A stretch of 64,000 nt of DNA. It comes from a virus. The stretch lies in the IMG/VR virus record IMGVR_UViG_3300028840_003497, positions 112,268 to 176,267 of that record. The stretch is one strand, 5' to 3'. Each line of letters opens with the position of its first letter. Position 1 is the stretch's first letter. Under the pieces are notes generated by a model. The model did not search any database, had not been told where the DNA came from, and was given only the letters and a program-made list of their open reading frames with translations. Both the position numbers and the translations under genes were made by a program. Shown here piece by piece: positions 3,341-34,152 of the stretch.

Positions 3341-4192
3341 CTAAATCTCGTTAGACTGCGCTCCTAGCTGCCGAGCCCACCGAGTTATTTTAGCATCATA
3401 CCATTCACAACGGTAACCACGCCAGTATAACCATGGCCTTTTCGACTTAAAAATGCGCCCTCTCTTCCTCATTGCATAAGCCGCCTCCGTAGCGCTCCCA
3501 CGAACAGACAGCATATTCGCAAAATCCCGTGGGTTCGAATAAAACCTCGACAGCAATTGCGCCGTCCCGAGATCGAACCCCGATTTATTGTAATACGTGT
3601 TCATGTCTTCATTCTGAACCACGGCAAGAATCTCATCCTCTGTGTGCGATATGCATCGCTTCTTCTTCTTAAGGATCCCTAGCCGATATGCCGTCTTCCT
3701 CGGATGCGTGCCGAGAGCACATCTGTCGAACTGAGACTCGTTTCGGATCGTCCCGGCCAACCCCCAAGGATTAAGAGTGAACCCTGCATCATCGGATTCA
3801 TCGGAGACCTCGTCAGCGGCTCTCACAATTTCATATGCATAGAACAGCGCCCTATCCTCGATCTCCTTTTCTCCATCCATCAACTCTCCGCACTCCCACC
3901 ATCCATCCTTTTTATAATTGGCAATACCATCTGCCAAACGACCAATGATCTGCAATTGATGCTTGCTCAGTGGATCAATGGTTACCTTCTCTTGTCCTGT
4001 ATCTTTCTTCACATTCGCCAATGTTACAGGAAGCTCATCTGGTTCAAAAATATCGCTCCCACAAAACGGCACATAATCTCCCCCTCGATCCTGCGCCTCC
4101 AAAACAATATCAGAACTCGGCCACGCCACGGCAGCCAATGCTCCGATGGCCAATATAGAGGCCATTACAATCAATCTAATAATCTTTTTCAT
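3341..4192 (-). CDS. secreted or membrane-anchored lytic transglycosylase (SLT)-like protein
   Basis: N-terminal hydrophobic segment; IRNES (catalytic Glu) and DLGTAQL motifs; start moved to MKKIIRL after GAGGAGG. Confidence 0.55.
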   Translation of the reverse strand: MKKIIRLIVMASILAIGALAAVAWPSSDIVLEAQDRGGDYVPFCGSDIFEPDELPVTLANVKKDTGQEKVTIDPLSKHQLQIIGRLADGIANYKKDGWWECGELMDGEKEIEDRALFYAYEIVRAADEVSDESDDAGFTLNPWGLAGTIRNESQFDRCALGTHPRKTAYRLGILKKKKRCISHTEDEILAVVQNEDMNTYYNKSGFDLGTAQLLSRFYSNPRDFANMLSVRGSATEAAYAMRKRGRIFKSKRPWLYWRGYRCEWYDAKITRWARQLGAQSNEI

Positions 4193-25919: not shown

Positions 25920-26927
25920 TTAGCGGTTGATTCTCAGCTGCGTTGTCAGTTGCGACCACGCGTACAATTCGCGCATAGCAAATTTCTCCAGATCGGACCA
26001 TGGCGTCCCCCGGACCTCAGTCGCCTCGTATGCAGCCCGAGCCTCTTCCTTCAGTTGCTCGGCCCACTCCTCGATCTCGGCTGCCGAGTACTTGCCCTGC
26101 TTCACATCGAGAATCTCCTGCGCGTAGGTCAGCGGGAACTTCAACTCGCCAGTCTCCATCAGTTCCTTGCCGCTCATCAGGAGGTGGATCAGGTTCGACG
26201 CGAACTTCGTGTCGTAGCCAAACCGCGTAAAAAGGACCACCCGGCTCGTCGCATTGTCCAGCCGGTGCCGGATCATCTTCTTGGCCTTCTTTACGGACAC
26301 CCCGCGCTCAAAGGAGAGGTCGCCGCATCTGACGTGCTTGCCTTTGCCCTCCCAGGTAAACGGTGGATGCTTCCCCTCATTGGTGCCGATCTCGACAGGG
26401 TCGATCAGCATGACAATCTCGGCCATGACTCGATGTTCGTCCTCCTTGTCCAGGATCTCTAGCCCTCGCAGAAGGTCCTTATAGTTCGCGGGCTTGATCC
26501 GCATCTTGTGAAGCTGGGCATCAGCATAAGCAACGAATCGTCGGTACGCACCCTTGTGGACGATCTTGTCCTTCAGGGCCAGCATCCGGTCCGCAAACCC
26601 ATGCTCGTCCCGGAACAGGATGTTCTCCTCATTCACAAAGATCGTGTGGATAAAGTTCGGGTTATTCTCCATCACGGTCTTCACGAACTTTCGATAGTCG
26701 TGGATCTTATAGTCGATCGCATCCTTCGTGTTGCGCCCGGTGTCGTCCTTGTCCACCTTCCCCAGATCGACCTCATCGCACCGCTGAAACCCGAAGATCG
26801 TCTCGTCCGGCGGCATAAAAATCCCAAAATAATCCTCGTCGCTGTCGGGAGTGCTCGTGCCAAAAAGGTGAGATCCCACCCGTATTTTCAGAATCGCGTT
26901 GTCCTGTGCCCATTTGCTGAAGTCCAT
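25920..26927 (-). CDS. predicted nucleotidyltransferase (Pol-beta superfamily, YcgL/RlaP-like)
   Basis: GSHLFG.STPDSDED.GIF; NPN; YD.KFA....LL..G.EL..TG. Confidence 0.85.
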   Translation of the reverse strand: MDFSKWAQDNAILKIRVGSHLFGTSTPDSDEDYFGIFMPPDETIFGFQRCDEVDLGKVDKDDTGRNTKDAIDYKIHDYRKFVKTVMENNPNFIHTIFVNEENILFRDEHGFADRMLALKDKIVHKGAYRRFVAYADAQLHKMRIKPANYKDLLRGLEILDKEDEHRVMAEIVMLIDPVEIGTNEGKHPPFTWEGKGKHVRCGDLSFERGVSVKKAKKMIRHRLDNATSRVVLFTRFGYDTKFASNLIHLLMSGKELMETGELKFPLTYAQEILDVKQGKYSAAEIEEWAEQLKEEARAAYEATEVRGTPWSDLEKFAMRELYAWSQLTTQLRINR

Positions 26928-27869: not shown

Positions 27870-29327
27870 ATGAAAAACACTGACGAACAACAGGCCATCA
27901 TCAACTCAACACCGTCCACTGGGGGATCGCTTCTAGTCACGGCCTTCGCCGGTACCGGGAAGACCTTCACCCTCCAGAAGTACGCGGAGGAGCGTCCTGC
28001 GGACAAGATTCTATACGCCGCGTTCAATAAAGCGATCCAACTGGAAGCCGAGCGGAAAATGCCGATGAACGTGACCAGCAGGACAACGCACTCACTGGCC
28101 TATCGCGCGTGCGCGCTACCCTATCAGAAGGCCGGGCTCCTGCGCGGATACATCCCGCTATGGGGAGTTGCCAAAATACTGGAGACCAACATCGTGATCG
28201 CAAACTTCGCGCTCTCCGTAGTCAATAACTTCATCGCATCGCCAGATCCGAAGATCACAAGCGCCCACATCGGGCAGGAGATCCACGATTACTACGAACA
28301 GGCTGATCACATGCCACCATTTGTAGAGATGGCGAGAATGATCTGGGACGACATGAAGAGCCTTGGCCAGCGAAGTCTCCCGATGACACACGACGGGTAC
28401 CTGAAACTCTTCCAGCTCTCCGGCCCCGATCTACGCTTCGACTACATCCTGCTCGACGAGGCCCAGGACACCACGCCATGCGTCTGGGATATTATGACCA
28501 ACCAGAGCTGCCGGAAAATAGTCGTGGGCGATGAACACCAAGCGATCTACTCCTGGCGAGGTGCCACTGATGCCTTGAAACTCGTCGAAGATGCCGAACA
28601 CCTTTATCTCACCCAGAGCTTTCGATTCGGACCCGAGATCGCAGCACTGGCCACCACCATGCTGCAGCGATTCAGAGGAGAGAAAAACAAACTCCTTGGA
28701 TTGGAGTCGATCCCTACAAAGATCCATACAGGAGGCCGCCCGGAGAAAAGAACCATGATCTGCCGGGGCAACATGCAAATATTCCGATCCTCCGCCACCG
28801 AGTGCCAATTTGGAGAGAAGAGTCTGGGTTTCGTAGGAGGAGACCACCGTAATTACCGCTTCCAGACCGTACTCGACGCTTACCACGTCTTCGATGATCA
28901 GCCCGAAATGGCCAAGGATGCACTCATCAAATCCTTCGAGACATTCGAAGATCTCCTGGAGTTTGCTGGCAAAACCAAGAACAATGAATTAGAAGGAGCC
29001 TGCCAACTGGTAGAAGAGTACGGTGCAAGGATCCCCATCATATTCCACGAAGTAAAGAATAGAGACGTTGGTGCTAAGTTTGGAGACCTAGCGTTTGCCA
29101 CCGGCCACAAGGCCAAGGGGATGGAATTCCCGGTCGTCGAAATTGGATCAGACTTCAGCGCCCGGATCGAGGCCCACCAGAAGAACCCGAAAGAGGGCAT
29201 CATGAATTCCCACGAGATGAACCTGCTATACGTAGCCATCACCAGGGCCACAGAGCACCTATACCTCTCACCCAGTATTGTGGACTTCATTCAGCACGGA
29301 ACCATCAAAAAGGAGGGACAGCTATGA
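27870..29327 (+). CDS. superfamily 1 (UvrD/Rep-like) DNA helicase
   Basis: AFAGTGKT, AFNK, LLDEAQD, VGD.HQ.IY.WRGA, LTQSFRFG, T.HKAKG.EF, LLYVAITRA. Confidence 0.95.
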   Translation: MKNTDEQQAIINSTPSTGGSLLVTAFAGTGKTFTLQKYAEERPADKILYAAFNKAIQLEAERKMPMNVTSRTTHSLAYRACALPYQKAGLLRGYIPLWGVAKILETNIVIANFALSVVNNFIASPDPKITSAHIGQEIHDYYEQADHMPPFVEMARMIWDDMKSLGQRSLPMTHDGYLKLFQLSGPDLRFDYILLDEAQDTTPCVWDIMTNQSCRKIVVGDEHQAIYSWRGATDALKLVEDAEHLYLTQSFRFGPEIAALATTMLQRFRGEKNKLLGLESIPTKIHTGGRPEKRTMICRGNMQIFRSSATECQFGEKSLGFVGGDHRNYRFQTVLDAYHVFDDQPEMAKDALIKSFETFEDLLEFAGKTKNNELEGACQLVEEYGARIPIIFHEVKNRDVGAKFGDLAFATGHKAKGMEFPVVEIGSDFSARIEAHQKNPKEGIMNSHEMNLLYVAITRATEHLYLSPSIVDFIQHGTIKKEGQL

Positions 29328-29617
29328 GTGCAGACAACTGGGCGCTTTGCCCACGGTGCAAAGAGAGGGACATCGAGAGACTCCGCACTGCGGTCGAGAT
29401 GGTCAAGAAATCGTACGGCAAAGTCCCCGAGGAAGAGTACATGCAGATGAAGGAGGATCTCGCCAAGGCAGATCCGGGAAACGCCACCGACCCCACACTG
29501 CGCGAGGACTACGAAATCGGAATCGGGAAGGACGGAATGTTCTCGATAACCTTCCGGGCAAGCTGCAAATGCGGCTTCAGGTTCACGTTCTCGTTCAAGG
29601 AGAAGGTGTTAACATGA
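29324..29617 (+). CDS. small zinc-binding protein
   Basis: MSADNWALCPRC ... TLREDYEIG ... CKC; ATGA overlap with helicase. Confidence 0.7.
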   Translation: MSADNWALCPRCKERDIERLRTAVEMVKKSYGKVPEEEYMQMKEDLAKADPGNATDPTLREDYEIGIGKDGMFSITFRASCKCGFRFTFSFKEKVLT

Positions 29618-29696: not shown

Positions 29697-30380
29697 ATGT
29701 ACAGAGTAAATGTAGAGTTGAACGGTTGCACGGATGTTGGAGGCAGCGACCTCCTGATGCATAACGACAATTTGACGTGGCGGGATGAAATGGATTTGTG
29801 GTTACAAGAACCCTTAAACAAGAATTCCAGCAGGGCCGGGGATGATCGTTCTCCAGCATGGCGCTGGCTCGGTTACTGCTACCACGACGGCGAAGTCGTA
29901 GGAATCCCAAGCGACAACCTGATGACCTGTATGCGGGGCGGAGCAACAATGATCAACGTCCCAGGCAAAGGCAAGAAGACATATAAAGCTCAGAGCCAGA
30001 GCGGACTCTTGGTTAACGAGATTCTGTGGCCAATCACAGTCAATGACGGCCAGATCATCAAATGGGAAGATATTGCTTCCTTGGCAAATGAAGAGGACTT
30101 TAATAAACACGTTGCCCGCGCCAACGAGCTAGGGATCGAATTGTTCGTCAAATCGGTGAGGATCGGGCAGTCCAAGAACATTCGAGTGCGCCCGAGGTTC
30201 AAAAACTGGAAAGCGAAAGGATCAATAACGGTCCTGGACGACACCATCACAATCGATCTATTGAAACGATTTCTGGAATGTTCTGGAATGTTATGCGGAC
30301 TCTGCGATTGGAGACCGTCATCGCCGAGATCACCTGGACCGTTCGGAAAATTCGTCGCCACGGTTACGAAGGCTAAATAG
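29697..30380 (+). CDS. Cas7/RAMP-like protein adjacent to the GGY-NN array
   Basis: N-terminal strand plus LLMHN; GIPSDNLMTCMR (compare RAMP IPGSSLKG.LR); RVRPRF..W; G-rich C-terminal loop G..CGLCDWRP....GPFGKF. Confidence 0.65.
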   Translation: MYRVNVELNGCTDVGGSDLLMHNDNLTWRDEMDLWLQEPLNKNSSRAGDDRSPAWRWLGYCYHDGEVVGIPSDNLMTCMRGGATMINVPGKGKKTYKAQSQSGLLVNEILWPITVNDGQIIKWEDIASLANEEDFNKHVARANELGIELFVKSVRIGQSKNIRVRPRFKNWKAKGSITVLDDTITIDLLKRFLECSGMLCGLCDWRPSSPRSPGPFGKFVATVTKAK

Positions 30381-30390
30381 GTAGACGCAT

Positions 30391-30706
30391 GGATCTGGGT
30401 AAGGCTAGGCCAGGCTTGGCGTGGCATGGCAAGGCGAGGATCGTGGCAAGGCGAGGCATGGCGCGGCAAGGCGAGGCGCGGCGAGGAACGTGGCAAGGCG
30501 AGGCATGGCAAGGCGGGGCTGGGCAAGGCGAGGATCGTGGTAAGGCTAGGCGTGGCTTGGCAAGGCTGGGCATGGCGAGGAACAGGGTAAGGTGTGGCAA
30601 GGCAAGGCGGGGCAAGGCATGGCGAGGAACATGGCAAGGCAAGGCAAGGCGCGGCATGGATCGTGGTAAGGCAAGGCTAGGCGTGGCCGGGCAAGGCGAG
30701 GAACGT
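30391..30706 (+). repeat. non-coding array of 7 units: GGAWCNN delimiter plus (GGY-NN)x5-8; probable guide-like ncRNA
   Basis: Delimiters at 30391, 30438, 30485, 30532, 30579, 30626, 30658, 30700; 52 pentamers; five units are exactly 47 nt. Confidence 0.9.
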
Positions 30707-30748
30707 GGAAAACATCATGGAGTACAACAGTATCAACGGAGGAGTACA

Positions 30749-31234
30749 ATGAACGAAAACAAGAAAGATGGCCTGTTTTTCGGAGGAGTCCCCACCGATG
30801 GAGACATCCGTCTCCTGGAAAATGAGTACGGAATTCCTGAAATCGGCAAGATTATACCCTACGAGGAGGTGGCTGCCGTCATCAAGTATGACAAGGATTC
30901 GTCACGGTTTAAAACAGTGACACAGCGCTGGCGAAAGAAGATCGAGCGCGACCACAACGTCATCATTGGCACCGAACGCGGGATCGGTTTTGTCGCACTC
31001 GACAACGCCTCTCGTGTTGATCTGGGATCCGACAAATTCAAATACGGCATGAAATCTGTTCGACGCGCGAACAAGGTCGTCTCTTCAACCGACCACTCAG
31101 ATCTTACTGATGATCAAGTTCAAGTCGCCCACCACGTACGACACGTCACCGCCGCACTGGTCGGAGCGGCCAGAATGGAGTCGAAAAAACTTCGGGCTCA
31201 ACTTCCCATGCCTGTCCAGCAGAACAGAAAGTAG
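30749..31234 (+). CDS. hypothetical protein downstream of array (possible nucleic-acid-binding partner)
   Basis: GGAGGAG RBS then MNENKK; 161 aa, basic and helical. Confidence 0.8.
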   Translation: MNENKKDGLFFGGVPTDGDIRLLENEYGIPEIGKIIPYEEVAAVIKYDKDSSRFKTVTQRWRKKIERDHNVIIGTERGIGFVALDNASRVDLGSDKFKYGMKSVRRANKVVSSTDHSDLTDDQVQVAHHVRHVTAALVGAARMESKKLRAQLPMPVQQNRK

Positions 31235-31310: not shown

Positions 31311-31934
31311 TCAGAATCGAAGTCTTGCCTCCTTCGTCTTTTTGATCCCTATACGAACAGCCTCATCCGCATCGTCCAACACCTCAGCAAGAAGAGCGAT
31401 ATTGCGATGCAGCCTGTCGCGGTAGTCGAGTTGATCCTCGGTGGCAGACTGCCAGTCCCCTTTGATCCCGCACTCGATCTGAACTAACCTTGCAACATTC
31501 GCAATCTCACGATGGAACACAGATTTGTTCTTCGACCTCCGGTAGAGAGCCCCGCACATTAGATTATAACTGTCCCCGCTATCGTTCCTGTACCGAATCA
31601 AATGATCGTACAACCACTGGTAGACTTCGATCTTCAACTTCGGACTGATCGCCAAGGCCATGTCGATAAACAACATCGGATGAACCCAGGTGTGCTTCCC
31701 GCGTCCGCGACCGGCGATCTTGACTTCTCCAAACCTATCCTCCAACTCCCTGATAAACTCCTTCGTTCCTTCGAGCTGAAACCAATGAGACATCTTAAAC
31801 GGAGACATCCCGTTCATGATGCGCCACTTATTCCCGGCACGAACCAAATCAGTCGCGCTGAACATCTCCGACTTGCTCTTTTGGGATATCTCCTCCCCGA
31901 AAAGCTGTCGCCTCATAATTACCTCTGTTTTCAT
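31311..31934 (-). CDS. KilA-N domain DNA-binding protein
   Basis: FSATDL...W.....TKEFI..L...GRG...TWVHP.L...A..ISP. Confidence 0.85.
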   Translation of the reverse strand: MKTEVIMRRQLFGEEISQKSKSEMFSATDLVRAGNKWRIMNGMSPFKMSHWFQLEGTKEFIRELEDRFGEVKIAGRGRGKHTWVHPMLFIDMALAISPKLKIEVYQWLYDHLIRYRNDSGDSYNLMCGALYRRSKNKSVFHREIANVARLVQIECGIKGDWQSATEDQLDYRDRLHRNIALLAEVLDDADEAVRIGIKKTKEARLRF

Positions 31935-32035
31935 GATATTAACTCCTTTTGAAATGGCGTCTTTTTTAGAACAATAAAGGAGCTTTTATAAAAGTCAACA
32001 CAATAACGGCGCTAATCTCGCCATTTCCAAGATAG

Positions 32036-32122
32036 TGGGCCGGGAAGGATTCGAACCTCCGAAGGGACTAGCCCGCCGGATTTACAATCCGGTGCCTTTG
32101 AACCGCTTGGCGATACCGACCC
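32036..32122 (-). tRNA. tRNA-Tyr(GTA)
   Basis: Anticodon arm CCGGA-TTGTAAA-TCCGG; long variable arm; GTTCGAATC. Confidence 0.9.
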
Positions 32123-32123
32123 A

Positions 32124-32215
32124 TGGTGCGCGGGGCGGGATTCGAACCCGCCCTGTCTCTGAAGTGTTACCCCGGGGCCTGAACCCGGTGCCTTTACCAG
32201 CTTGGCTACCCGCGC
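32124..32215 (-). tRNA. tRNA-Leu(CAG), CCA encoded
   Basis: CCGGG-TTCAGGC-CCCGG; long variable region. Confidence 0.85.
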
Positions 32216-32216
32216 A

Positions 32217-32290
32217 TGGTGATCCCGACTGGAGTCGACCCAGTGTCTCCGGCTCTTCAAGCCAGCGCTAAACCCCTCAGCTACAAGACC
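32217..32290 (-). tRNA. tRNA-Phe(GAA), CCA encoded, atypical T-loop
   Basis: CTGGC-TTGAAGA-GCCGG; T-loop GTCGACT; several G-U acceptor pairs. Confidence 0.75.
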
Positions 32291-32291
32291 A

Positions 32292-32374
32292 TGGACGGAT
32301 CGAAGCACATCTGCGCATTTTACATTGCCGTCGAACTGAATCGTCGGTTGCTGCCGTGTGAAATCCGATCCGTC
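32292..32374 (-). ncRNA. unidentified rod-like hairpin RNA within the tRNA array
   Basis: 9-bp terminal stem GACGGATCG/CGATCCGTC, 3' end reads CCA; no cloverleaf. Confidence 0.4.
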
Positions 32375-32377
32375 TTG

Positions 32378-32451
32378 TGCGCGAGCTGGGAGTCGAACCC
32401 AGAACCACAGACCCCTCAAGCCTGCTCCTCTTCCAGTTGGGATACTCGCGC
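32378..32451 (-). tRNA. tRNA-Leu(GAG), short variable loop
   Basis: CAGGC-TTGAGGG-GTCTG; A73. Confidence 0.85.
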
Positions 32452-32457
32452 ATATAT

Positions 32458-32530
32458 TACGACTGAGTGGATTCGAACCACCAACTTTCGGTTCTTGAAA
32501 CCGACGCCTCTTCCGTTGGGCCACAGTCGC
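32458..32530 (-). tRNA. tRNA-Leu(CAA), short variable loop
   Basis: TCGGT-TTCAAGA-ACCGA; A73. Confidence 0.85.
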
Positions 32531-32531
32531 T

Positions 32532-32607
32532 TGGTGCGCCCCCTCGGATTCGAACCGAGCCTGAACCGGGCTTAAACCGGATCCCTCTTCCACTGGGGTA
32601 GGGGCGC
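32532..32607 (-). tRNA. tRNA-Leu(TAA), short variable loop, CCA encoded
   Basis: CCGG-TTTAAGC-CCGG; A73. Confidence 0.85.
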
Positions 32608-32613
32608 ATATAG

Positions 32614-32689
32614 CAAGTGCGGAAGGATTCGAACCTTCAACCTTTGGATTTGGAATCCAACGCTCTGACCAAATTGGAGCCACGCACCC
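32614..32689 (-). tRNA. tRNA-Trp(CCA)
   Basis: TTGGA-TTCCAAA-TCCAA; G73. Confidence 0.9.
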
Positions 32690-32694
32690 ATAAG

Positions 32695-32778
32695 CGGAGG
32701 TAGAAAGATTCGAACTTTCAAGCCAGTTTCCCGACCACAGTTTAGCAAACTGCTGCGTTACCATTACGCTATACCTCC
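32695..32778 (-). tRNA. tRNA-Ser(GCT)
   Basis: GCAGT-TTGCTAA-ACTGT; long variable arm; G73. Confidence 0.9.
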
Positions 32779-32782
32779 CTTG

Positions 32783-32855
32783 AGTCTCGGGCCGGGTTCG
32801 AACCGGCGTCCTTCTTGGGTTGCAACCAAGTGCCTCGCCTCTTGGCTACCGAGAC
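32783..32855 (-). tRNA. tRNA-Cys(GCA)
   Basis: CTTGG-TTGCAAC-CCAAG; U73. Confidence 0.9.
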
Positions 32856-32929: not shown

Positions 32930-33871
32930 CTATTGAACCCCTTTCTTTAACCATTTCCTTATAGCATTATCAGAAACCCCATACTTCCTCCCAGCCGCAC
33001 AATATCCATTCTTATCAACAAACTTTTTAACTTCATCAAGTATCGGTCTTGGGACTTTCCGCTGCGCAACACTAGCAGCACGTCTTCTCTTTTCACTTTT
33101 CAAATCAGAACGATAACACTCTACAGAACAATACTTTTGCCCAGTTTTGTAAGGGAAAGCATTGCTACACATAATACACGAAACAATCTTTCTTTTTCTT
33201 TCTGATAAACGATCAGCAATAATCAAACCCTGTTCCCGCACATACCTCCTAACTGCAGCCTGATTCCTTGGACTGTTTTTACGTCCAAGTTTATCAAGAA
33301 CCTCCCCAATAGAAGAACTGTTTTTAACAATCAATCTAAGAATGTCATCAGTATACATGTCAATCCATGACTCTCTTTTTCTTCTTCCTTTATGAACCAA
33401 TGCTCTGTTTTTGAAATTTTTAACTCCATAATTACTAGTTTGAGAATGACAATTAGGACAAAGAAACCTCAAATTCCCTTTGATATTATTAAACGGATCC
33501 CCGTCAATGTGATCAACTTGAAGAGTGATCTCATTACCCATCCACTCCGATAATCCACAACATGCACAAACATATTCTACGCCTGATTCAATAAGAGCCC
33601 TTCGCAAAGCATACGCATGCTCTCGGGAACCGTCTTTTCTGGATAAAACATCAGAAGGACTACGCTTATTGACAGAAATCCTGCCTTTGTTCCAACCCCC
33701 TCTTCCAGAAGCAAAATGAGAAAAATCAACACCATGTCTAACTGCCATTCTCTTCGCATGGGCTTGAGAAGAACCATGAGTAGAACTTTCAAAAATCCTA
33801 CAGACATCAGCCCATGTGGCCGATTCAGCCACAGCCTTTTCCAGTCTCTCTTTCGTATATTTCGATTCCAA
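32930..33871 (-). CDS. HNH (homing) endonuclease
   Basis: CACCG...LQVDHIDG...NN...NLRFLCPNCHSQT; TTG start after GGAGG; visibly AT-richer than flanks. Confidence 0.9.
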   Translation of the reverse strand: MESKYTKERLEKAVAESATWADVCRIFESSTHGSSQAHAKRMAVRHGVDFSHFASGRGGWNKGRISVNKRSPSDVLSRKDGSREHAYALRRALIESGVEYVCACCGLSEWMGNEITLQVDHIDGDPFNNIKGNLRFLCPNCHSQTSNYGVKNFKNRALVHKGRRKRESWIDMYTDDILRLIVKNSSSIGEVLDKLGRKNSPRNQAAVRRYVREQGLIIADRLSERKRKIVSCIMCSNAFPYKTGQKYCSVECYRSDLKSEKRRRAASVAQRKVPRPILDEVKKFVDKNGYCAAGRKYGVSDNAIRKWLKKGVQ

Positions 33872-34152
33872 AACAGCCTCCGTATGGTAATGCAAAATAT
33901 TGCACCAAATACAATACCATACATAATGGTAAACGACCAAGGTGACGCTATGCCATTCAGCCACACCCCATAAGGGTTATGACCTAACTAAAATATGAGG
34001 ATAAATATAGATGTAGGGACGAACACCACAACCGAGCGGTCGTAGTGGCAGGGATCGCGATCATCGGGACATTTTTTTTGATGGGCTGTTCCATTTGTCG
34101 TCTCCTGCAAACCAGTGTCGGCTATGTTCGCCAGAAAAGTCAAGAGGAAAGT

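What the first reader, a model, noticed from the sequence alone, without database searches (positions are those of the whole stretch)
29697..31234. Candidate RNA-guided system: Cas7/RAMP-like gene + punctuated GGY-NN array + partner gene
Seen: 10 nt after the stop of a 227-aa gene lies a 316-nt array. Each unit is a 7-nt GGA(T/A)CNN delimiter followed by GGY-NN pentamers (8, 8, 8, 8, 8, 5 and 7 per unit). GGY is invariant while NN varies: U1 AA TA CA TT GT AT AA GA; U2 AA GA AT GC AA GA GC GA; U3 AA GA AT AA GG TG AA GA; U4 AA TA GT TT AA TG AT GA; U5 AA GT AA AA GG AA AT GA; U6 AA AA AA GC AT; U7 AA AA TA GT CG AA GA. Every unit starts GGYAA and six of seven end GGCGA. Periods of 5 and 47 nt argue against protein coding. 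The protein shows RAMP-like hallmarks (IP..NL...R helix, terminal G-rich GLCDWRP...GPFGKF loop). Established: Cas7-family RAMPs polymerise along guide RNA with a fixed periodicity. Inference: each unit is processed at the delimiter, one subunit binds each GGY, and the exposed dinucleotides together specify a gapped target. No cas1/cas2, CRISPR repeats or obvious nuclease are present, so it may silence rather than cut. I recall a recent description of RAMP plus GGY/NN arrays under the name VIPR but cannot verify it here, so novelty needs checking.
Basis: partly seen in the sequence, partly recalled or inferred. Interest (0 to 1): 0.95.

Follow-up and report, generated by a model that had tools for sequence, protein, structure and literature searches.

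The report
VIPR guide-RNA system in a phage
This 176-kb phage carries a complete VIPR system, the CRISPR-related, RNA-guided DNA-silencing system first described in 2026 preprints: a small Cas7-like protein, seven short guide RNAs made of GGY-NN five-base repeats, and a DNA-binding partner, so it is a well-supported new example of a known kind.

Summary
It consists of 52 perfect GGY-NN pentamers in seven units (8,8,8,8,8,5,7), bounded by eight 7-nt GGAWCNN elements at 30391-30706. It lies between a 227-aa gene and a 161-aa gene.

The reading is essentially right, and the recalled name is correct. VIPR was published in bioRxiv 10.64898/2026.04.26.720920 and .720927.

- **Protein:** it matches the solved SUSP1 Vipr by sequence (E 1.8e-8) and keeps the GGY-reading residues. 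Its confident model (pLDDT 95.5) hits Csm3/Cas7.
- **Relatives:** period-5 GG arrays lie on the vipr strand in 20 of 22 fetched viral loci. GGY is fixed and NN differs.
- **Partner gene:** it has a winged-helix-like fold and falls in the same PHROG as the gene next to vipr in SUSP1-like phages (vap1-like).

Differences from the characterised type II system:
- There is no structured 3' tail, only a GGC-RA/GGAWC/RN boundary shared by a large metagenomic clade.
- Guides are short, at 8 repeats.
- The array sits between vipr and vap.

Targets could not be identified, because 16-nt gapped guides give chance-level database hits. The adjacent UvrD-like helicase is not conserved beside vipr.

This scan has found VIPR loci before on other DNA (79 notes, at least 72 genomes).

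Verdict: new member of a known kind, with modest interest.

The parts
29697..30380 (+). vipr: 227-aa Vipr (ancestral RAMP/Cas7-like) protein, P0001
   Evidence: PDB sequence hit to 36pp_D 'SUSP1 Vipr protein', E 1.8e-8. phrog_4652, E 2e-17, the same PHROG as the wV8 Vipr at 1e-96. BLASTP to the Felixounavirus wV8 Vipr gives 25% identity and E 2e-16 over residues 15-223. AF2 pLDDT is 95.5. Foldseek top hits are Csm3/Cas7 of type III-A and type VII, E 1e-5, prob 1.0.
30391..30706 (+). vrRNA array: seven guide units of GGY-NN pentamers bounded by eight 7-nt GGAWCNN elements. The delimiters lie at 30391-97, 30438-44, 30485-91, 30532-38, 30579-85, 30626-32, 30658-64 and 30700-06.
   Evidence: It is the only such array in the 176-kb genome. 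The same architecture occurs in relatives.
30398..30437 (+). Guide unit U1, 8 pentamers, NN = AA TA CA TT GT AT AA GA
30445..30484 (+). Guide unit U2, 8 pentamers, NN = AA GA AT GC AA GA GC GA
30492..30531 (+). Guide unit U3, 8 pentamers, NN = AA GA AT AA GG TG AA GA
30539..30578 (+). Guide unit U4, 8 pentamers, NN = AA TA GT TT AA TG AT GA
30586..30625 (+). Guide unit U5, 8 pentamers, NN = AA GT AA AA GG AA AT GA
30633..30657 (+). Guide unit U6, 5 pentamers (short, possibly truncated), NN = AA AA AA GC AT
30665..30699 (+). Guide unit U7, 7 pentamers, NN = AA AA TA GT CG AA GA
30749..31234 (+). vap (vap1-like accessory gene): 161 aa, P0123. N-terminal winged-helix-like domain (about residues 14-89) plus a C-terminal pair of long helices. 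GGAGG lies at 30738-30742.
   Evidence: Conserved next to vipr in L002-L008 at 35-39% identity. phrog_5926, E 7e-5, the PHROG of the gene after vipr in phage wV8 at E 7e-76. hhalign to that gene gives E 6.5e-4 and prob 28%. AF2 pLDDT is 73.5. VIA-align top hits are PurR and ScpB winged helices, Z 7.9 and 7.4. The family has 1826 representative clusters.

Best explanation
This is a VIPR (Viral Interference Programmable Repeat) locus of a 176-kb tailed phage, ordered vipr - vrRNA array - vap.

**Shown here**
- The protein is a Vipr homologue with a RAMP fold and the residues that read GGY.
- The array is a canonical GGY/NN array.
- The partner gene is a vap1-like, winged-helix-like protein.
- Protein, array and partner co-occur in a large clade of phage contigs, with hypervariable NN.

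**Taken from the published SUSP1 work**
- One Vipr protomer binds each pentamer.
- Two neighbouring protomers sequester each GGY.
- The exposed NN pair with double-stranded DNA in the register NNx (1-nt skip). This forms an R-loop triplex that blocks transcription of a competing mobile element.
- Vap enhances the effect.

**Inferred for this clade**
- The locus is read rightwards as one transcript from upstream of vipr.
- Each GGAWC-NN element ends a Vipr filament. It puts a purine where the Y pocket excludes purines, and it shifts the register by 2 nt.
- The exposed linker is cut, by an unknown RNase or by trimming. This would yield seven tail-less guides of about 40-47 nt.
- Each guide specifies at most 16 nt, and about 12-14 variable nt once the constant first AA and the last GA/boundary are set aside.
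- The targets are probably coding, sense-strand sequences with the skipped base at the wobble position, in an unidentified competitor or host-resident element.
For: **Membership**
- phmmer hit to PDB 36pp_D 'SUSP1 Vipr protein', E 1.8e-8.
- BLASTP to the wV8 Vipr, E 2e-16.
- The published GGY contacts map onto the window protein: H17, R138, C173, D177, W178 and R179 correspond to H22, R165, C200, D204, W205 and R206. R39 corresponds to R46, and G87-K88 to G92-K93.
- R165, G201, R206 and P207 are invariant and D204 is at least 90% conserved across 47 homologues.
- AF2 pLDDT is 95.5. Foldseek top hits are Csm3/Cas7 and viral RAMP-like proteins.

**Array**
- 19 of 22 viral loci encoding a homologue have runs of 4 or more GGYNN, all on the vipr strand. 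One more has an NNNGG array.

**Clade architecture**
- 45 internal boundaries from 9 loci read GGC-[G/A]A | GGA[A>T]C | RN | GGY.
- Unit length has a mode of 8 and a range of 4-18.
- NN differ completely between relatives, including the closest.

**Vap**
-.

**Context**
- The record is a complete virus record with direct terminal repeats. Relatives sit in phage contexts.
- There is no Cas1 or Cas2, no Rfam ribozyme in the array and no self-target.
- NN composition fits sense codon positions 1-2 best, at +9.4 bits for the window and +10.3 bits for the clade. In the clade the other five registers are all negative; in the window one of them is weakly positive (antisense positions 2-3, +2.4 bits) and the other four are negative.

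**Published mechanism**
-.
Against: - No transcript, RNP or binding data exist for this locus.
- Guides have 8 repeats, below the 9-16 quoted for characterised vrRNAs.
- NN are of low complexity: AA is 19 of 52 and GA is 9 of 52.
- U6 has only 5 repeats.
- No structured 3' tail or pseudoknot is present to cap the filament.
- No natural target was found. Exact NNx scans of IMG/VR gave 110, 68, at least 117 and 47 hits for U1, U4, U2 and U3. These are chance-level numbers, scattered over unrelated genes, with no contig hit convincingly by two guides.
- The link of Vap to vap1 is weak: PHROG E 7e-5, hhalign prob 28%.
Confidence: 0.93

Rival explanations
1. A decaying or idle VIPR locus. The protein is intact, but the array has drifted to short, low-complexity units that no longer direct useful binding.
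For: - 8-repeat units, one 5-repeat unit, and 28 of 52 NN being AA or GA.
- No target found.
- The closest relative's array, L135, is visibly degenerate, with pentamers such as CGCGA, GCCTG and GACAA.
Against: - GG is 52 of 52 and Y is 52 of 52, with perfect phasing. That would not survive drift.
- 8 repeats is the modal unit length of the clade.
- All GGY-contact residues are kept.
Confidence: 0.08
2. A helicase-assisted, target-destroying VIPR like types III-V. In this reading the upstream UvrD-like helicase (27870-29327) and the 97-aa protein (29324-29617) are functional partners of the system.
For: - They form the only + strand island together with vipr-array-vap.
- The paper says types III-V carry nuclease or helicase vaps.
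Against: - tblastn finds neither protein within 3 kb of vipr in any of 22 related loci, whereas Vap is found in all seven complete close relatives.
- The helicase has ordinary homologues in 285 phage records as a replication-type DNA helicase.
- Long-contig relatives show other neighbours.
Confidence: 0.05
3. The repeat tract is protein-coding: an N-terminal G/A/R/K-rich extension of the downstream protein, as the 281-aa ORF 30389-31234.
For: One + frame is open through the whole array and is in frame with the downstream gene.
Against: - Periods of 5 and 47 nt are not multiples of 3.
- GGYNN can form stops in only a few ways, so open frames are compositional. The related arrays in L003 also carry long ORFs.
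- There is a strong GGAGG and ATG at 30749.
- Vap homologues start at residues 1-9 of P0123.
- In relatives the array lies after vap or before vipr.
Confidence: 0.01

Closest known systems
Type II VIPR of Escherichia phage SUSP1 and the Pseudomonas fulva prophage (bioRxiv 10.64898/2026.04.26.720920, 10.64898/2026.04.26.720927, 10.64898/2026.10.15.759431)
   Same: - A single small Vipr RAMP with the same GGY-reading residues.
- GGY/NN pentamer guides on the vipr strand.
- A small accessory gene of the same PHROG (phrog_5926) with a winged-helix-like fold.
- Phage-borne, with no cas1, cas2 or CRISPR array.
   Different: - Only about 25% protein identity. The window protein has a roughly 30-aa helical insertion (residues 123-148) and a 7-aa longer G-loop (SSPRSPGP).
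- Guides are 8 repeats rather than 9-16.
- There is no invariable structured 3' tail or pseudoknot. Units abut, separated by 7 nt.
- The array lies between vipr and vap.
'Staggered vrRNA arrays' mentioned in the VIPR discovery preprint (fig. S18 legend; not confirmed there by sRNA-seq)
   Same: In both, vrRNAs directly abut, so that the end of one marks the start of the next, without long tails or ribozymes.
   Different: I could read only the legend, not the figure or data tables. Whether that architecture is the GGAWC-NN punctuation seen here, with its 2-nt register shift, is untested.
Class 1 CRISPR backbone subunits (Csm3/Cas7 of type III-A, Cas7 of type VII)
   Same: - RRM core, thumb and glycine-rich loop.
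- One subunit per fixed step of guide RNA, with the thumb flipping bases at a fixed period.
- Foldseek E 1e-5 and prob 1.0.
   Different: - TM is only about 0.46 and sequence identity about 10%.
- The step is 5 nt with three bases sequestered, against 6 nt with one flipped.
- There is no repeat-spacer array, no Cas6 or Cas5, no adaptation genes and no large subunit.

Membership tests
VIPR system | Vipr protein: a minimal RAMP with RRM core, thumb and G-loop, homologous to described Vipr proteins | tested here: met
   PDB 36pp_D SUSP1 Vipr, E 1.8e-8. BLASTP to the wV8 Vipr, E 2e-16. Shared phrog_4652. AF2 pLDDT 95.5 with Csm3/Cas7 as top folds.
VIPR system | Residues that read the GGY motif (SUSP1 H17, R138, D177, W178, R179, C173) | tested here: met
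   These map to H22, R165, D204, W205, R206 and C200 in the pairwise alignments. R165 and R206 are invariant and D204 is at least 90% conserved in 47 homologues. Helix-1 E71/M72 align to N74/L75, so that part of the Y pocket is not identical.
VIPR system | vrRNA gene(s): at least 4 tandem YNNGG/GGYNN repeats beside vipr, on its strand | tested here: met
   52 pentamers in 7 units, starting 10 nt after the vipr stop, on the same strand. It is the only array in 176 kb.
VIPR system | GGY conserved and NN hypervariable across related loci | tested here: met
   Arrays of L002-L008, L135, L139, L377 and L379 keep GGY and share almost no NN strings with the window.
VIPR system | vipr-accessory (vap) gene in the operon | tested here: met
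   The 161-aa gene is conserved beside vipr in all seven complete close relatives. It falls in phrog_5926, like the gene after vipr in the Felixounavirus wV8.
VIPR system | Non-CRISPR context: no cas1, cas2 or CRISPR array; mostly viral or proviral | tested here: met
   PF01867 and PF09827 are absent from the genome, with positive controls. The record is a complete DTR virus record.
VIPR system | vrRNAs are expressed, bind Vipr, and direct dsDNA binding by the 1-nt-skip rule | not testable with these tools
   Indirect evidence only. NN composition fits sense codon positions 1-2 best. No natural target was found.
VIPR type II (SUSP1/P. fulva architecture) | Each vrRNA ends in an invariable structured 3' tail (a pseudoknot in the SUSP1 clade) | tested here: not met
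   Units are separated by 7 nt only. The conserved boundary is GGC-RA/GGAWC/RN. There is no discrete hairpin in the fold and no Rfam match.
VIPR type II (SUSP1/P. fulva architecture) | vap1 accessory gene | tested here: inconclusive
   Shared PHROG at E 7e-5 (relatives at 6e-6 and 2e-8), but hhalign to wV8 gp94 gives only 28% probability, E 6.5e-4. That wV8 gp94 equals vap1 is inferred from synteny.
Class 1 CRISPR-Cas | Repeat-spacer array with cas genes (Cas5, Cas6, large subunit, Cas1-Cas2) | tested here: not met
   No Cas1 or Cas2. The only repeat array has a 5-nt period.

The most novel reading that the evidence does not exclude
In this clade the 7-nt GGAWC-NN element would be a self-contained guide terminator. 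A purine in the pyrimidine pocket plus a 2-nt register shift would stop Vipr polymerisation. Guide boundaries in a multi-guide array would then be set by filament assembly itself, followed by trimming of the naked linker. This would need no structured tail, ribozyme or Cas6-like nuclease. It would be the most compact multiplexed guide array known, at 47 nt per guide.
Probability: 0.3. Interest if true: 0.5.

Novelty: new member of a known kind. Interest (0 to 1): 0.3.

Why it matters
The locus adds a complete, clean example of VIPR from a large uncultivated phage. It belongs to a populous clade: 741 Vipr homologues in the 90% clustered collection and 1826 Vap representative clusters. The guides of this clade are tail-less, abutting and as short as 8 repeats.

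If the boundary rule holds, it gives a very compact way to multiplex VIPR guides, at 47 nt each. It would also set a lower bound on functional guide length. Both points are useful for anyone engineering VIPR.

It does not change what is known about the mechanism. The scan has already met VIPR loci in at least 72 other genomes.

Tried and rejected
**Self-targeting.** The best NNx match in the 176-kb genome is 14 of 16, no better than with 0, 2 or 3-nt skips.

**Cross-targeting among 23 related loci.** There is no enrichment at skip 1 (26 near-matches against 32, 44 and 42 at the other skips).

**Exact NNx scans of IMG/VR for U1, U4, U2 and U3.**
- The hits number 110, 68, at least 117 and 47, with a median GC of 36% against 51% for this phage.
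- Recurrent hits are database redundancy in unrelated genes:
  - a podovirus nozzle protein ('KYHFVIND');
  - a DUF2201 metallopeptidase-like protein ('NYQLVINE');
  - an unknown 325-aa ORF ('KEIAKEAD');
  - a phrog_6604 small protein of 60-62% GC proviruses ('NEIANDAD').
- Three whole proviruses and one 68.7-kb phage (G001) with a perfect hit for one guide show only background for the others.
- I therefore make no target claim.

**Skip-rule test with a long relative's guide.** The 20 specified bases of L002 U10 gave one IMG/VR hit. It is in phase ('PSGVFYRVTG*') but lies in a tiny ORF and is compatible with chance.

**Hammerhead or other ribozymes in the array.** None were found.

**Helicase, 97-aa ORF, KilA-N and HNH as system parts.** They are not conserved beside vipr.

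**Direct BLASTP of Vap against wV8 gp94.** There is no similarity (E 0.51).

**Type assignment (I-VII).** This was not possible, because the preprint's supplementary tables are not held.

**Host assignment.** This was not possible.
Full report
**1. Observation**

- An ORF at 29697-30380 (227 aa, P0001) ends 10 nt before a 316-nt array at 30391-30706.
- The array has seven runs of perfect GGYNN pentamers (8, 8, 8, 8, 8, 5 and 7; 52 in all).
- The runs are separated by 7-nt GGA(T/A)CNN elements. An eighth element, GGAACGT, closes the array at 30700-30706.
- G1 and G2 are invariant, and position 3 is C in 47 and T in 5. N4 and N5 carry 1.6 and 1.5 bits of entropy.
- TRF finds periods of 5, 47 and 94.
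- Simulated 64-kb sequences give 0.1 runs of 4 or more pentamers. Sequences with the array's own dinucleotide content never exceed 5.
- The whole 176-kb genome has no second array.
- A 161-aa gene (30749-31234, P0123) follows, with GGAGG 6 nt before its ATG.

**2. What is known**

VIPR (Viral Interference Programmable Repeat) was described in bioRxiv 10.64898/2026.04.26.720920.
- A single ancestral RAMP protein, Vipr, binds vrRNAs made of alternating GGY and NN.
- The NN pair with dsDNA with a 1-nt skip.
- The result is transcriptional silencing of competing mobile elements.
- The loci usually hold only vipr and one vap gene and are mostly viral or proviral.
- Seven types are distinguished.

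The companion structural paper (10.64898/2026.04.26.720927) shows one protomer per repeat and names the GGY-reading residues. Two later preprints extend the biology and the census.

**3. The protein is a Vipr**

- P0001 matches one PDB sequence only, 36pp_D 'SUSP1 Vipr protein', at E 1.8e-8.
- It matches phrog_4652 at E 2e-17. The Vipr of the SUSP1-like Felixounavirus wV8 hits the same PHROG at 1e-96.
- tblastn finds 119 phage records at about 25% identity, nearly all Felixounavirus-like.
- BLASTP to the wV8 protein gives E 2e-16 over residues 15-223.
- In these alignments the published contacts are kept: H17 to H22, R138 to R165, C173 to C200, and D177-W178-R179 to D204-W205-R206. R39 maps to R46 and G87-K88 to G92-K93.
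- Helix-1 E71/M72 align to N74/L75, and K82 to T84.
- In 47 homologues R165, G201, R206 and P207 are invariant, and D204 is at least 90% conserved.
- The AlphaFold model is confident (pLDDT 95.5, pTM 0.89).
- Its best PDB folds are Csm3/Cas7 of type III-A and Cas7 of type VII (E 1e-5, prob 1.0, TM about 0.46).
- Its best viral models include a 'Cas system-associated RAMP superfamily protein'.
- Compared with SUSP1 and wV8, the window protein has a roughly 30-aa helical insertion before the thumb hairpin and a 7-aa longer G-loop.

**4. Arrays travel with the gene**

- Of 22 IMG/VR loci encoding a homologue, 19 have runs of 4 or more GGYNN. All of these lie on the vipr strand and none on the other strand.
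- One more locus has an NNNGG array, and one is cut at the gene end.
- The close clade (52-61% identity; L002-L008, L138/139, L377, L379) shares the window's architecture of units separated by 7 nt.
- Over 45 internal boundaries from 9 loci the consensus is GGC-[G/A]A | GGA[A 37, T 5, G 2, C 1]C | R-N | GGY-NN.
- The last NN before the boundary is R in 44 of 45 and A in 38 of 45. The first NN after it is unbiased in the clade.
- The conserved element is therefore a short 3' boundary of about 11-12 nt. The window's terminal GGCGA belongs to it.
- Unit length ranges from 4 to 18 pentamers with a mode of 8, so the window's 8-repeat guides are typical of the clade.
- NN strings differ entirely between relatives, including the closest (L135, whose Vap is 77% identical).
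- The family is large and unnamed, with 741 homologues at E of 1e-3 or better.

**5. The partner gene is a vap**

- P0123 is found directly beside vipr in all seven complete close relatives at 35-39% identity. The helicase, the 97-aa ORF, the KilA-N gene and the HNH gene of the window are found in none.
- Gene order varies. It is vipr-array-vap in the window, L135 and L138/139. It is vipr-vap-array in L002-L007 and L379. Units lie on both sides in L008 and L377.
- P0123 and its relatives hit phrog_5926 at E 7e-5, 6e-6 and 2e-8. The gene right after vipr in wV8 hits the same PHROG at 7e-76.
- Profile-profile comparison with that gene is colinear but weak (E 6.5e-4, prob 28%). Plain BLASTP shows nothing.
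- The model (pLDDT 73.5) has an H-b-H-H-b-b domain followed by two long helices.
- VIA-align's best matches for residues 14-89 are winged-helix domains: PurR at Z 7.9 (rmsd 2.8 A over 70 residues), ScpB at Z 7.4, and the SSV1 F-112 winged helix at Z 5.6.
- Foldseek gives only weak wHTH matches. These Z values are in the range where only a common arrangement may be shared, so 'winged-helix-like' is as far as this goes.
- The result agrees with the preprint's statement that the vaps of several types are predicted DNA-binding proteins.
- A profile of the family finds 1826 representative clusters.

**6. Context**

- The window is the last 64 kb of a 176,267-bp IMG/VR virus record with direct terminal repeats, rated complete.
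- The locus lies in the only + strand island, from about 27.8 to 31.2 kb. It sits behind a UvrD-like helicase and a 97-aa ORF, and before a KilA-N gene, nine tRNA genes and an HNH endonuclease on the other strand.
- There is no Cas1 or Cas2 anywhere in the genome.
- No Rfam family, ribozymes included, falls in the array.
- The array RNA folds somewhat better than shuffles (z = -3.3), but only through periodic 2-bp contacts, without a discrete hairpin.
- Long-contig relatives sit among phage replication or packaging genes.

**7. Is the ORF through the array real?**

- One + frame is open from 30389 into the vap frame. The other two + frames have 5 and 2 stops.
- GGYNN can form stops in only a few ways, and related arrays also carry long spurious ORFs.
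- The periods of 5 and 47 nt are not codon multiples.
- Vap homologues begin at residues 1-9 of P0123.
- In relatives the array is not upstream of vap.
- I therefore treat the 281-aa ORF as compositional.

**8. Targets**

- Under the published NNx rule the guides have no match better than 14 of 16 in their own genome. That is the same as under wrong skip rules, and it agrees with the absence of self-targeting reported for VIPR.
- NN composition fits sense codon positions 1-2 best (+9.4 bits for the window's 38 internal NN and +10.3 bits for 369 clade NN). For the clade the other five registers are all negative; for the window one of them is weakly positive (antisense positions 2-3, +2.4 bits) and the other four are negative. 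This is a weak internal sign of coding, sense-strand targets with the skip at the wobble base.
- Exact scans of IMG/VR gave chance-level numbers for 16 specified bases, mostly in low-GC contigs.
- In-phase recurrent hits fall in unrelated genes that are merely abundant in the database.
- Complete records carrying a perfect hit for one guide show only background for the rest.
- A 20-base gapped pattern from a relative's 12-repeat guide gave a single hit that chance can explain.
- The targets, and the host, remain unknown.
- One point worth follow-up: the NN string CC AG GG GT TT TA recurs in the arrays of three different relatives.

**9. Mechanism proposed**

- The shown and borrowed steps are as in the best explanation.
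- The clade-specific inference rests on two facts. The structural paper states that the Y pocket sterically excludes purines. Every boundary here has A at that position, followed by a 2-nt phase shift.
- That should end a filament and leave a short naked linker. This offers a simple route to tail-less guides.
[quoted passage not shown] This may be the same architecture, but I could not see the figure.

**10. Verdict**

- The kind is already known: four 2026 preprints, and this scan has noted it in at least 72 other genomes.
- This locus is a new member from a populous, uncharacterised clade. It differs from the characterised type II systems in boundary and tail architecture, guide length and gene order.
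- Interest is modest.

Noticed in passing
window 32035-32855 (- strand): A cluster of nine tRNA genes: Tyr, Leu-CAG, Phe, Leu-GAG, Leu-CAA, Leu-UAA, Trp, Ser-GCU and Cys. The 250-aa 'ORF' at 32012-32764 lies across it and is spurious. An 86-nt gap at 32291-32376 within the cluster holds no tRNA call.
   Followed up: partly
window 27870-29617 (+ strand): A UvrD-like SF1 helicase (485 aa; phrog_1967, E 2e-82) overlaps by 4 nt with a 97-aa ORF. Together with the VIPR locus they form the only + strand island of the window. Neither is found beside vipr in 22 related loci, so they look like neighbours, not parts.
   Followed up: yes
window 31311-31934 and 32930-33964 (- strand); 25920-26927 (- strand): A KilA-N domain protein, an HNH endonuclease (phrog_10822, E 1e-58) and an RlaP-like nucleotidyltransferase (phrog_388) flank the locus.
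   Followed up: no
L002 4303-4347 and 4670-4729; L004 1556-1600; L007 1913-1967: Guide units in three different relatives begin with the same NN string, CC AG GG/GT GT TT TA, and then diverge. Decoded at a 1-nt skip, the string reads P-[S/R]-G-V-[F/L]-Y. This suggests either a shared conserved target or an inherited guide.
   Followed up: partly
L134 (phage wV8, EU877232.1) 2235-2292 and 3628-3685: The 2008 GenBank record annotates two 58-nt direct repeats ('DR_4') on either side of the vipr-vap pair. They lie just after GGY-rich tracts and are probably the conserved vrRNA tails of the SUSP1-type system.
   Followed up: no
L135 556-740: The closest relative of the window's locus (Vap 77% identical) has a shorter, visibly degenerate array between vipr and vap, with pentamers such as CGCGA, GCCTG and GACAA. 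Arrays in this sub-clade may therefore erode quickly.
   Followed up: no
window 30398-30699: GG repeated every 5 nt, (G2N3)n, is also a canonical two-tetrad G-quadruplex motif. Naked vrRNA or the non-template DNA strand could form such structures when not coated by Vipr.
   Followed up: no
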